Below, piece by piece: positions 1,604-4,600 of a stretch of 64,000 bases of DNA. The stretch lies in NCBI RefSeq assembly GCF_017348835.2, contig NZ_CP071375.1. One strand, written 5' to 3'. How positions within the stretch are numbered: the stretch's first letter is position 1; every line of letters begins with the position of its first letter. Position numbers: made by a program. Source of the DNA: Escherichia coli. GTDB taxonomy: Bacteria > Pseudomonadota > Gammaproteobacteria > Enterobacterales > Enterobacteriaceae.

Positions 1604-4600
1604 TACAAAAATGTGCAAATTCAATAAATTGCAATTCACCTTGTAGGCCTGATAAGCGCAGCGCATCAGGCAATTTGGCGTTGCCGTCAGTCTCAGTTAA
1701 TCAGGTTAGGACGATTAACCCTGCAGCAGAGACAGAACCTGCTGCGGTACCTGGTTGGCTTTTGCCAACACGGAGTTACCGGCCTGCTGGATGATCTGCG
1801 CTTTCGACATATTGGACACTTCGGTCGCATAGTCGGCGTCCTGAATACGGGACTGCGCTTCAGACAGGTTGGTAGTGGTGTTGTTCAGGTTGGTAACCGC
1901 GGAATCCAGACGGTTCTGCACCGCACCGAGGGAGGAGCGGAATTTGTCGATGGAGCTGATCGCTTCGTCCAGAGCTTTCAGGGGATCGGCGGTGGAACTG
2001 GATGCAGTAGTAGCTTCTGTTGTTAACTTACCATCAGCTGTTTCATAGATGGTACCACCGGTGCTGTTGGTAATAGCCCCATTTTTTTGTTCAAAGTAGG
2101 TTACATCTTTTGTAGCATTGGCTGAAAGTGCACCATCTTCGACATAAACATCAGCATTTGCAGCAGCTTTCACATCTCCATTGGAAACTGTGTAAGTTAC
2201 TGTACCTGTACCGCCCATATCAATGGTAAAATTGCTTTTTGTCAGATTTGCCATACCTTCGGCACTGACATGTGCGTTGGTGACATTGACAGTGTCTACT
2301 TTTGCTAAACTGGTGAACTGAGCGCCACTTCCTGTTGTGCTATAAACAGTGTTCTGGCCGGTACCTGAAGTTACGGTTAAGGTAGCATCCTTACTGTTAG
2401 CAATTAAATTATCTAACGAAGCAGCTGTATTTCCTCCAGCCGTTGTAGTGAATCCACCAGTAGTCGCATCAAGATAAAGTGCACTACCATCAGCCGCTGT
2501 TATGTTTCCATTACTTGCTACCAAAATGTCTGTAGCAGCGCCTCCCTCAATACTTACCTTAGCCGCAAATGCACCACCTGCAAGAATCTGAGAATTTGTT
2601 GAGGTCTGAATTCCTGCTCCTGCGGACTGAACAGACATTCCGGAAGCTGTACCAGAAGTAATTGTAATTGTAGTTGCAACCCCAACTGGAACCGCACCGG
2701 TAGAATCGCTGTTGGAAATTAAACCATCCCACGTCGCTGCGGTATCGTTACCTGCATTCGTTTTTGTCAAGTTTCCCTGTTTATCTAAATACAGCGTCGC
2801 ATTATCATCTGCCGCAGTAATTTTTCCATCCTGGGAAATATTAACTTTCTGCTCTTTACCACCAATAGTCACTGTCGCCTGCGACGAATCACCGGTGTTT
2901 GGATTAATGATGCTTAACGTCTTCGCTGAATCGGCACCATCTGCAGCAAAACTATAAGATTTACTTGCTGCATCATAGGTGTAACCATTCTTTGCAGCCA
3001 CGCCAAAAGCGTTTGCCCCTCCCCCAGTGATCACTGATCCATCGGTGATATTAGCTAACAGATCGGATGCTTTGGCTTTGTCATTACTAATTGTGTTTGT
3101 ATACGCGGTCACGCCATTGGTATCTGTGGTGCCCTTAGTGAAACCAGCCAGTTTTAAATCGTCGCTTGTCGCAGCTGTATTCGCTACAGAACCTTTACCG
3201 TTAACGTTAAAACCAGCCAGATTCAGCGTATCAGAGTCAATTTTCTTCAGATCAATAGTAATCGTTTCGCCATCGTTCGCGCCGACCTGAATTTTCATCG
3301 AGCCATCTTTTGACAGTACGTTCACGCCGTTGAACTGGGTTTGGCCGGATACGCGGTCAATTTCATCAAGACGGGATTTGATTTCGTCCTGAATGGAGTC
3401 CAGGTCAGAGGTGGAGTTAGTTCCGGTCGTCGCCTGAACCGTCAGTTCACGAATACGCTGTAAGTTGTTGTTGATTTCGGACAGCGCGCCTTCGGTGGTC
3501 TGTGCAACAGAAATACCGTCGTTGGCGTTACGTGCAGCCTGAGTCAGGCCTTTAATGTTAGAAGTAAAACGGTTAGCAATCGCCTGACCTGCGGCGTCAT
3601 CCTTCGCGCTGTTAATACGCAAGCCAGAAGACAGACGCTCGATAGAACTCGACAGCGCAGACTGGTTCTTGTTGATATTATTTTGAGTGATCAGCGAGAG
3701 GCTGTTGGTATTAATGACTTGTGCCATGATTCGTTATCCTATATTGCAAGTCGTTGATTACGTATTGGGTTTCCACCCGTCGGCTCAATCGCCGTCAACC
3801 CTGTTATCGTCTGTCGTAAAACAACCTTTAGAATTTTTTTCACAAACAGCCATTTTTTGTTAGTCGCCGAAATACTCTTTTCTCTGCCCCTTATTCCCGC
3901 TATTAAAAAAAACAATTAAACGTAAACTTTGCGCAATTCAGGCCGATAACCCCGGTATTCGTTTTACGTGTCGAAAGATAAAAGGAAATCGCATGGCAAG
4001 TATTTCATCGCTGGGAGTCGGGTCAGGTCTGGATTTAAGTTCAATCCTTGATAGCCTCACCGCCGCGCAAAAAGCGACGCTAACCCCTATTTCAAATCAG
4101 CAATCGTCGTTTACCGCTAAACTTAGCGCCTACGGTACGCTGAAAAGCGCGCTGACGACTTTCCAGACCGCCAATACTGCATTGTCTAAAGCCGATCTTT
4201 TTTCCGCCACCAGCACTACCAGCAGCACCACCGCGTTCAGTGCCACCACCGCGGGTAACGCCATCGCCGGGAAATACACCATCAGCGTCACCCATCTGGC
4301 GCAGGCACAAACCCTGACCACGCGCACCACCAGAGACGATACGAAAACGGCGATCGCCACCAGCGACAGCAAACTCACCATTCAACAAGGCGGCGACAAA
4401 GATCCGATTACCATTGATATCAGCGCGGCTAACTCGTCTTTAAGCGGGATCCGTGATGCCATCAACAACGCAAAAGCAGGTGTTAGCGCGAGCATCATTA
4501 ACGTGGGTAACGGTGAATATCGTCTGTCAGTCACATCAAATGACACCGGCCTTGACAATGCGATGACGCTCTCGGTTAGCGGTGATGATGCGCTACAAAG

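What the first reader, a model, noticed from the sequence alone, without database searches (positions are those of the whole stretch)
1715..3727. Unusually long flagellin (670 aa) with an expanded variable domain
The conserved N- and C-terminal flagellin regions flank a ~350-residue central domain rich in T, G, A, S and N. This is far longer than the ~500-aa K-12 flagellin and indicates a distinct H antigen. Both sigma-28 promoters in the fliC-fliD intergenic region are intact.
Basis: seen in the sequence. Interest (0 to 1): 0.3.

Follow-up and report, generated by a model that had tools for sequence, protein, structure and literature searches.

The report
Common E. coli H9 flagellin gene
This is the ordinary, intact gene for the H9 type of E. 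coli flagellin, a well-known and common allele. Its extra length comes largely from an ancient internal duplication of one surface-exposed domain.

Summary
A 670-aa flagellin ORF lies at 1715-3727 (minus strand) in the normal E. coli fliZ-fliA-fliC | fliD-fliS-fliT-amyA locus. Both sigma-28 promoters are present. The gene is 100% identical in nucleotide sequence to fliC of strain PE164, which SerotypeFinder typed as O108:H9. It is 99.2% identical to E110019 (O111:H9). Its length matches the 2013-bp fliC reported for ETEC E9034A (O8:H9). Its variable region is at least 99% identical in 414 of 5,426 complete E. coli genomes, so it is long but not rare. The variable region is about 405 residues, not about 350. 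One detail goes beyond the finding. Residues 297-397 and 403-493 are diverged tandem copies of one roughly 100-residue module (profile-profile probability 97.6%, E 3.5e-12). Copy 1 corresponds to the part of the solved H6/H7 flagellins that carries the D4 dimer-site motif. Relatives of 544-622 aa, including H6, have one copy. Relatives of 670-693 aa in Kluyvera, Enterobacter, Leclercia and Cedecea have both. Whether H9 filaments form an H6/H7-like outer-domain sheath is inferred, not shown. Already known; low interest.

The parts
1715..3727 (-). fliC coding sequence, H9 allele: 670 aa plus the stop codon at 1715-1717
   Evidence: ORF listing. Pfam and NCBIfam matches. 100% nucleotide identity to fliC of PE164, typed O108:H9.
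3203..3727 (-). Conserved N-terminal region (aa 1-175; D0/D1 filament-core helices)
   Evidence: Near-identical to K-12 FliC. Flagellin_N at residues 5-140. Long helices in the AF2 model.
1988..3202 (-). Variable, antigen-determining outer-domain region (aa 176-580; 405 aa; GC 44.8%)
   Evidence: Diverges from K-12. At least 99% identical in 414 of 5,426 complete E. coli genomes. Residues 176-365 and 486-578 are homologous to the EPEC H6 outer domains.
2537..2839 (-). Internal repeat copy 1 (aa 297-397). It is the counterpart of H6 residues 284-385 and carries the D4 dimer-site motif (G318-N319-L320-T321-K322-T323-N324).
   Evidence: D4 site as defined in PMC8931119.
2249..2521 (-). Internal repeat copy 2 (aa 403-493). 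This is the extra module absent from H6 and from other relatives of 544-622 aa.
   Evidence: Smith-Waterman score 132 against 68 +/- 9 for shuffles. hhalign probability 97.6%, E 3.5e-12. Presence or absence in homologues. Secondary-structure order parallel to copy 1.
1718..1987 (-). Conserved C-terminal region (aa 581-670; D1/D0 helices)
   Evidence: Identical to K-12 over nearly its whole length. Flagellin_C at residues 583-668.
3804..3830 (-). Sigma-28 (FliA) promoter of fliC: TAAAGGTT-N11-GACGATAA
   Evidence: Pattern search gave 5 hits in the window against 0.37 expected. The sequence is identical to K-12.
3923..3949 (+). Sigma-28 promoter of fliD-fliS-fliT: TAAACTTT-N11-GCCGATAA (perfect -10; K-12 has ACCGATAA)
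1518..1714 (-). fliC 3' untranslated region, equivalent to the K-12 FliX sRNA, with an intrinsic terminator (stem 1524-1540 followed by a T run)
   Evidence: 98% identical to the K-12 region annotated as fliX. Terminator scan.
3993..5399 (+). fliD (filament cap), the divergent neighbour
   Evidence: ORF listing. Annotation of the identical PE164 locus.
676..1395 (-). fliA (sigma-28), downstream neighbour on the same strand
   Evidence: ORF listing. Annotation in PE164 and K-12.

Best explanation
This is the chromosomal fliC gene of an E. coli strain carrying the H9 flagellar antigen.

How it works, from established knowledge of flagellar class-3 genes: FliA (sigma-28) transcribes the gene from the conserved promoter 77 nt upstream of the start codon. 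The protein is exported through the flagellar type III apparatus. It then polymerises under the FliD cap.

What the sequence shows: the N- and C-terminal helices (aa 1-175 and 581-670) are the invariant parts and form the filament core. The 405-residue centre folds into beta-rich outer domains on the filament surface, and these carry the H9 epitopes.

The extra length relative to the closest solved relative (EPEC H6, 546-548 aa) is explained by one additional module of about 100 residues (aa 403-493). This module is an ancient, diverged tandem duplicate of the preceding one (aa 297-397). The preceding module is the counterpart of the part of H6/H7 that carries the D4 dimer-site motif.

Inferred only: because the D2-D4 region is homologous to that of the sheath-forming H6/H7 flagellins, H9 filaments probably also carry an outer-domain layer, thickened or decorated by the extra domain.
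For: - **Flagellin identity.** The ORF and its domains are those of a flagellin.
- **Locus.** Gene order and annotation match K-12 and PE164.
- **Promoters.** Both are intact and match K-12 or the consensus.
- **H9 assignment.** The gene is 100% identical in nucleotides to PE164, which PMC12233904 reports as O108:H9 by SerotypeFinder. It is 99.2% identical to E110019, O111:H9 in Table 1 of PMC2782363. It is 98.9% identical to a RefSeq strain named O21:H9. ETEC E9034A (O8:H9) has a 2013-bp fliC, is flagellated, and loses its flagella on fliC deletion.
- **Frequency.** The variable region is at least 99% identical in 414 of 5,426 complete genomes. The exact protein was seen on 728 contigs.
- **Duplication, sequence evidence.** The local alignment scores 132 against 68 +/- 9 for shuffles, z = 7. 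Profile-profile probability is 97.6%, E 3.5e-12. Amino-acid identity is 41% and nucleotide identity 48%. There is no DNA-level tandem repeat.
- **Duplication, comparative evidence.** Both copies are present in all 17 relatives of 670-693 aa, and only about one copy in the 17 relatives of 544-622 aa. The AF2 secondary-structure order is parallel in the two copies, with pLDDT about 85-95.
- **Relation to H6/H7.** phmmer gives E 5e-23 for the centre alone against 7sn7/7sqj. The Foldseek top hits are 7sn7 (H6) and 7sn4 (H7). H7 N319 aligns with H9 N319.
Against: - Nothing contradicts the flagellin or H9 assignment. However, H9 was assigned genotypically or taken from strain descriptions; no serology was done on this strain.
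- PMC2782363 is internally inconsistent: its text says O111:H2 and its table says O111:H9.
- One strain with a 99.2% identical gene is labelled O39:NM (non-motile). An intact gene therefore does not guarantee expression.
- For the sheath inference, the second Asn of the H7 D4 dimer site (N323) is Thr in H9, and copy 2 lacks both Asn residues.
- The AF2 model has pTM of only 0.50, so the arrangement of the domains relative to each other is not reliable.
Confidence: 0.95

Rival explanations
1. A new or untyped H antigen: the long centre would represent a flagellin variable region not covered by the 53 recognised E. coli H types.
For: The variable region has no counterpart in K-12. Within E. coli it has essentially no DNA-level relatives below 95% identity.
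Against: It is identical to the allele of a strain typed H9 with SerotypeFinder. It is 98.9-99.2% identical to other strains labelled H9. The 2013-bp length is reported for an O8:H9 ETEC.
Confidence: 0.02
2. A cryptic or non-expressed flagellin gene: intact in sequence but silent in this strain, so that the strain would type as non-motile.
For: Some strains with near-identical genes are labelled NM, for example O39:NM F8704-2 at 99.2%. H9-type alleles also occur disrupted: by IS1 in ABW_A32, by a split gene in WS0115A, and truncated in Shigella boydii 5216-82.
Against: Here the ORF is uninterrupted. Both sigma-28 promoters, the 5' leader and the 3' UTR/terminator are conserved. fliA, fliZ, fliD, fliS and fliT are intact ORFs. 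Whether flhDC and the rest of the regulon are functional cannot be judged, because flhDC lies outside this window.
Confidence: 0.08
3. The extra length is a recent insertion, a low-complexity expansion or an assembly artefact, rather than a stable domain.
For: The T/G/A/S/N-rich composition (61%) could suggest low-complexity expansion.
Against: Tandem Repeats Finder finds no relevant DNA repeat. The two copies share only 48% nucleotide identity. The same 2013-bp gene occurs in more than 400 independent complete genomes. Homologues of 671-693 aa with both copies exist in other genera. AF2 predicts ordered beta structure with pLDDT 85-95.
Confidence: 0.01
4. The additional outer domain has a dedicated function other than sheath architecture or antigenic variation, for example as an adhesin or an enzyme displayed on the filament.
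For: Flagellin outer domains with adhesive or enzymatic roles are described in the literature cited by PMC8931119 and PMC11532411. FliC of an O8:H9 ETEC was studied for cell colonisation.
Against: No Pfam or NCBIfam family other than flagellin families matches the centre. Copy 2 has no significant sequence match in the PDB; the best hit is E 0.0077 to a nanobody, which I treat as chance. There is no Cys, no Arg and only one His in the 405 residues, and no recognisable catalytic motif.
Confidence: 0.1

Closest known systems
E. coli H9 flagellin (fliC-H9), e.g. strains PE164 (O108:H9), E110019 (O111:H9), ETEC E9034A (O8:H9)
   Same: The nucleotide sequence is identical to PE164 and 99.2% identical to E110019. 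The length is the same (2013 bp, 670 aa), as are the locus and the promoters.
   Different: Nothing of substance. The few substitutions relative to other H9 alleles lie mostly in the conserved termini; for example, this protein has T100 and T106 where cluster member P0007 has S and D.
EPEC O127:H6 flagellin (PDB 7SN7 / 7SQJ; outer-domain-sheath filament, PMC8931119)
   Same: This is the closest solved structure. Foldseek reports 53% identity. H9 residues 176-365 align with H6 177-362, and H9 486-578 align with H6 369-457. The D4 dimer-site motif region is shared.
   Different: H6 is 546-548 aa and has one copy of the repeated module. H9 has about 120 extra residues (roughly 366-485), equivalent to one further copy. 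H9 has Thr where H6 and H7 have the second Asn of the dimer site.
EHEC O157:H7 flagellin (PDB 7SN4)
   Same: The core is the same. The outer domains are homologous over H9 residues 1-435, and N319 is conserved. It is the second-best Foldseek hit.
   Different: It is 585 aa with three outer domains (D2-D4). Its outer-domain sequence is much more divergent from H9 than H6 is.
E. coli K-12 H48 flagellin (498 aa)
   Same: The locus, promoters, 3' UTR and D0/D1 core are identical or nearly so.
   Different: Its outer domains are unrelated (Salmonella-like D2/D3 according to PMC8931119), and its variable region is 172 aa shorter.
Geovibrio thiophilus flagellin (PDB 9AU6), in which D5 is a duplication of D4 (PMC11532411)
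   Same: It is a precedent for enlarging a flagellin by duplicating an outer domain.
   Different: The sequence is unrelated, and there the duplicate is inserted into a loop of the parent domain. In H9 the two copies are adjacent in the sequence.

Membership tests
Bacterial flagellin (FliC/FljB family) | N-terminal and C-terminal helical flagellin domains (Pfam PF00669, PF00700) | tested here: met
   PF00669 scores E 4e-46 over residues 5-140. PF00700 scores E 6e-32 over residues 583-668.
Bacterial flagellin (FliC/FljB family) | Score above the curated cut-off of the NCBIfam FliC/FljB model | tested here: met
   NF005953 scores 763.6 bits against a cut-off of 619.
Bacterial flagellin (FliC/FljB family) | Position in the enterobacterial fliC locus (between fliA and divergent fliD) with a sigma-28 promoter | tested here: met
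   Gene order fliZ-fliA-fliC | fliD-fliS-fliT-amyA. The promoter is identical to K-12.
Bacterial flagellin (FliC/FljB family) | Assembly into a filament and motility | not testable with these tools
   Indirect only: an O8:H9 ETEC with a 2013-bp fliC is flagellated, and its fliC deletion mutant is not.
E. coli H9 antigen type | Variable-region sequence matching that of strains typed H9 | tested here: met
   100% identity to PE164 (O108:H9 by SerotypeFinder). 99.2% to E110019 (O111:H9). 98.9% to a strain named O21:H9.
E. coli H9 antigen type | Agglutination with H9 reference antiserum | not testable with these tools
   Requires the strain.
Outer-domain-sheath (ODS) flagellins of the H6/H7/Achromobacter type (PMC8931119) | Outer domains D2-D4 homologous to those of H6/H7 | tested here: met
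   The centre alone against 7sn7/7sqj gives E 5e-23 over 190 residues, plus a second stretch. The Foldseek top hits are 7sn7 and 7sn4.
Outer-domain-sheath (ODS) flagellins of the H6/H7/Achromobacter type (PMC8931119) | Conserved D4 dimer-site residues (H7 N319 and N323; the second is Glu in Achromobacter) | tested here: inconclusive
   N319 is conserved. The position aligned to N323 is Thr323 in H9, followed by N324.
Outer-domain-sheath (ODS) flagellins of the H6/H7/Achromobacter type (PMC8931119) | Outer domains form symmetric dimers or tetramers that build a sheath around the core | not testable with these tools
   Needs cryo-EM of H9 filaments. The monomer AF2 model (pTM 0.50) cannot address this.

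The most novel reading that the evidence does not exclude
H9-type flagellins (670-693 aa; found in E. coli and also in Kluyvera, Enterobacter hormaechei, Leclercia and Cedecea) would form a structurally uncharacterised variant of the H6/H7 outer-domain sheath. In this variant a duplicated D4-like domain adds a further outer layer. That layer would change filament diameter, surface epitopes and possibly swimming behaviour in viscous mucus. No solved structure contains this extra module.
Probability: 0.35. Interest if true: 0.3.

Novelty: already known. Interest (0 to 1): 0.1.

Why it matters
For the genome scan this is an annotation point. The window comes from an E. coli with the H9 flagellar genotype, most like the porcine aEPEC/ExPEC hybrid O108:H9 strain PE164. 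The flagellin locus is intact and unremarkable.

The one detail not found stated in the papers read here is that the H9 length stems from an old tandem duplication of the module carrying the D4 dimer-site motif. That would make H9 a natural test case for how an added outer domain affects the outer-domain sheath described for H6 and H7. This is a modest structural-biology lead, not a surprise, because domain duplication in flagellin outer regions is already documented (PMC11532411).

Tried and rejected
- **Self-BLASTP.** A self-comparison of the protein returned only the trivial full-length hit. The internal repeat needed a split Smith-Waterman alignment and profile-profile comparison.
- **DNA-level repeats.** Tandem Repeats Finder found no repeat matching the protein duplication, only a chance 6-nt array at 2658-2676.
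- **Rfam.** No family matched the fliC 3' UTR at gathering threshold. I identified the region as FliX-equivalent only by alignment to the K-12 annotation.
- **Literature on H9 length.** Wang et al. 2003 (PMC154406) is not held. Searches for 'fliC H9' phrases gave almost nothing. Terms containing a colon or only two characters are rejected. A search for the strain name E110019 together with O111/O78/O8 H9 phrases found nothing. Searching for the strain name PE164 and for '2013 bp' succeeded.
- **Longest E. coli flagellin?** I could not test this. The only related statement found is that Shigella fliC alleles range from 1575 to 2013 bp.
- **Nanobody resemblance.** Repeat 2 weakly resembles the nanobody CDR2/FR3 region (best E 0.0077). 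I rejected this as a chance match of a short beta-hairpin motif.
- **Structural superposition.** Only the order of secondary-structure elements was compared.

Full report
**1. The observation**

The ORF listing shows a single uninterrupted reading frame on the minus strand from 3727 (ATG) to 1715 (stop included), encoding 670 aa. Three Pfam families match:

- Flagellin_N at residues 5-140 (E 4e-46).
- Flagellin_C at residues 583-668 (E 6e-32).
- The enterobacterial 'FliC' middle-region family PF12445 at residues 441-574.

NCBIfam NF005953 'FliC/FljB family flagellin' scores 763.6 bits, above its 619-bit cut-off.

The neighbours are those of the E. coli fliC locus. fliZ and fliA lie downstream on the same strand. 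fliD-fliS-fliT and amyA are divergent. This is seen in the ORFs and in the annotation of K-12 and of the identical region in strain PE164.

Aligned with K-12 FliC (498 aa), the first 175 or so and the last 90 or so residues are nearly identical, and everything between diverges. Nucleotide identity to K-12 collapses after about nt 540 from the 5' end and before about nt 300 from the 3' end.

In that region T+G+A+S+N make up 61% of residues, against 45% in the termini. There is no Cys or Arg. GC content is 44.8%, against 50.4% for the whole window.

**2. The promoters**

The 265-bp fliC-fliD intergenic region differs from K-12 at two positions only. A search for TAAA-N15-GCCGATAA with up to one mismatch gives 5 hits in the window against 0.37 expected by chance. 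Two of them lie in this intergenic region:

- 3830..3804 (minus strand): TAAAGGTT-N11-GACGATAA, 77 nt upstream of the fliC ATG and identical to K-12.
- 3923..3949 (plus strand): TAAACTTT-N11-GCCGATAA upstream of fliD. One of the two differences from K-12 falls here and makes the -10 element a perfect consensus (K-12 has ACCGATAA).

The fliC 3' UTR is 98% identical to K-12. This includes the region annotated in K-12 as the sRNA FliX and the GC-rich terminator hairpin at 1524-1540.

**3. Which H antigen**

Megablast of the gene against 5,426 complete E. coli genomes gives 100% identity over all 2013 nt to strain PE164, a pig isolate from Nanjing. The paper describing PE164 reports serotype O108:H9, predicted with SerotypeFinder 2.0 (PMC12233904).

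Further H9-labelled strains have near-identical genes:

- E110019 is 99.2% identical. It is listed as O111:H9 in Table 1 of PMC2782363, although the running text of that paper once says O111:H2.
- A RefSeq strain named 'O21:H9' is 98.9% identical.
- APEC O78 is 98.6% identical. From my own knowledge it is O78:H9; I did not verify this here.

Independently, ETEC E9034A (O8:H9) is reported to have a chromosomal fliC of exactly 2013 bp. It is flagellated, and its fliC deletion mutant lacks flagella (PMC11858209).

The variable region alone (window 1985-3202) is at least 99% identical in 414 of 5,426 complete genomes. It has almost no partial relatives within E. coli. The exact protein sequence was seen on 728 contigs in the large protein collection. 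The allele is thus long, but common and well known.

**4. Why it is long**

The closest solved structures by sequence and by fold are two cryo-EM filament structures:

- EPEC O127:H6 (7SN7/7SQJ, 546-548 aa; 53% identity in the Foldseek alignment).
- EHEC O157:H7 (7SN4, 585 aa).

H9 residues 176-365 align with H6 177-362, and H9 486-578 align with H6 369-457. About 120 H9 residues (roughly 366-485) have no H6 counterpart.

Within H9, residues 297-397 align with residues 403-493. The supporting numbers are:

- The BLOSUM62 local score is 132, against 68 +/- 9 for shuffled sequence (z = 7).
- Profiles of the two segments built from the 17 long homologues align with hhalign probability 97.6%, E 3.5e-12, over 93 columns.
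- The copies share 41% amino-acid identity and 48% nucleotide identity.
- Tandem Repeats Finder sees nothing at the DNA level.

The duplication is therefore old.

An AlphaFold2 model built on a 34-sequence alignment has mean pLDDT 82, with values of about 85-95 through most of the centre. It gives the same order of strands and helices in both copies, offset by 92-108 residues.

A database search with the centre finds two groups of relatives:

- Full-length relatives of 670-693 aa, 53-85% identical in the variable region, in Kluyvera georgiana, Kluyvera sichuanensis, Enterobacter hormaechei, Leclercia adecarboxylata and Cedecea colo, and in metagenomes.
- Shorter relatives of 544-622 aa.

All 17 long proteins contain both copies. 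The 17 short ones contain roughly one. The simplest reading is that an H6-like architecture of about 550 aa gained one extra module by tandem duplication before the variable region spread among Enterobacteriaceae. E. coli then holds it as one of its many laterally exchanged fliC centres, consistent with the low GC of the centre.

**5. What the duplicated module is**

Copy 1 matches H6 residues 284-385 (E 8.5e-12). Copy 2 has no significant PDB sequence match.

Kreutzberger et al. (PMC8931119) showed that H6, H7 and Achromobacter flagellins have three outer domains, D2-D4. These dimerise or tetramerise into an 'outer domain sheath'. Mutating N319 and N323 in the H7 D4 dimer site disrupts the sheath and reduces motility. 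In the phmmer alignment H7 N319 aligns with H9 N319, and H7 N323 aligns with H9 T323, which is followed by N324.

Copy 1 is therefore the counterpart of the D4 dimer-site region, and copy 2 is an additional D4-like module that lacks both asparagines. Outer-domain duplication as a route to larger flagellins has a documented precedent in Geovibrio thiophilus, where D5 is a duplicate of D4 (PMC11532411).

**6. Mechanism, shown versus inferred**

- **Shown:** an intact flagellin gene of the H9 genotype in its normal locus, with intact class-3 promoters; a conserved core; a folded, beta-rich variable centre; and an internal domain duplication that accounts for the extra length over H6.
- **From established knowledge of the flagellar regulon:** FliA-dependent transcription, type III export and FliD-capped polymerisation, with the outer domains as the H epitopes.
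- **Inferred:** H9 filaments carry an H6/H7-like outer-domain layer with one more domain per subunit. One of the two dimer-site asparagines is replaced, and the AF2 inter-domain geometry is unreliable (pTM 0.50). I put this at roughly one in three.

**7. Rivals**

- A novel H type is excluded by identity to typed H9 strains.
- An artefact or recent expansion is excluded by the hundreds of identical-length copies, the cross-genus homologues, and the low nucleotide identity between the two copies.
- A silent gene cannot be excluded from sequence alone. One 99.2%-identical strain is labelled non-motile, and disrupted H9 alleles exist. Nothing in this window points that way.
- A special enzymatic or adhesive role for the extra domain has no support from family searches.

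**8. Verdict**

The finding is correct and ordinary. This is the known, common E. coli H9 fliC allele. The internal duplication is a small, plausible structural lead but belongs to a known kind of flagellin evolution. Interest 0.1; novelty: already known.

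Noticed in passing
window 40001-64000: This stretch is a lambdoid prophage (tail tape measure, host-specificity protein J, tail fibre, major capsid) carrying the type III effector gene nleB2. 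It is 100% identical to PE164 over 96% of the stretch. The PE164 coordinates are offset by about 1.3 kb from what the fliC match predicts, so the window differs from PE164 by an insertion or deletion somewhere between 3.7 and 40 kb.
   Followed up: partly
protein collection cluster of the window FliC (P0001-P0015): The 90%-identity cluster holding this flagellin has 3,625 members. Its representative and many of its members are IS200/IS605 TnpB fragments with no similarity to flagellin. This is probably a clustering artefact seeded by a chimeric gene call, for example an IS inserted in an H9 fliC. Cluster-level names for this protein are unreliable.
   Followed up: partly
window 1518-1714 (-): The fliC 3' UTR is 98% identical to the K-12 region annotated as the sRNA FliX. 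It includes REP-like palindromes and the terminator at 1524-1540. Rfam 15 reports no family here at gathering threshold.
   Followed up: partly
window 3937 (+): A single-base difference from K-12 makes the fliD sigma-28 -10 element a perfect GCCGATAA, where K-12 has ACCGATAA. It may slightly raise fliDST transcription; I did not examine this further.
   Followed up: no
window 19038-19064 (+) and 62264-62290 (-): Two further sigma-28-like sites were found. The first lies just upstream of the presumptive fliL-fliR operon, in the flagellar region 12.7-23 kb. The second lies inside the prophage region and may be a chance match.
   Followed up: no
window 24703-24789 (-) and 33125-33214 (+): The sRNA genes DsrA (102.5 bits) and RseX (97.7 bits) were detected by Rfam.
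   Followed up: no
related genomes: NZ_CP067303 (ABW_A32), NZ_CP035882 (WS0115A), NZ_CP027587 (2013C-4974), Shigella boydii 5216-82 (P0010): Natural variants of the H9 allele were seen. ABW_A32 has an IS1 insertion. WS0115A has a gene 1 nt longer that is annotated as two flagellin pieces. 2013C-4974 has an allele matching only 82% of the variable region, a possible mosaic. Shigella boydii 5216-82 has a 239-aa truncated product.
   Followed up: no
window 2249-2521 (-), aa 403-493: Repeat copy 2 (NITAADGSALYLDATTGGFTTT...) weakly resembles the CDR2-framework 3 stretch of camelid nanobodies (best E 0.0077 to 3zkx_C). I judge this a chance resemblance of a beta-hairpin motif.
   Followed up: partly
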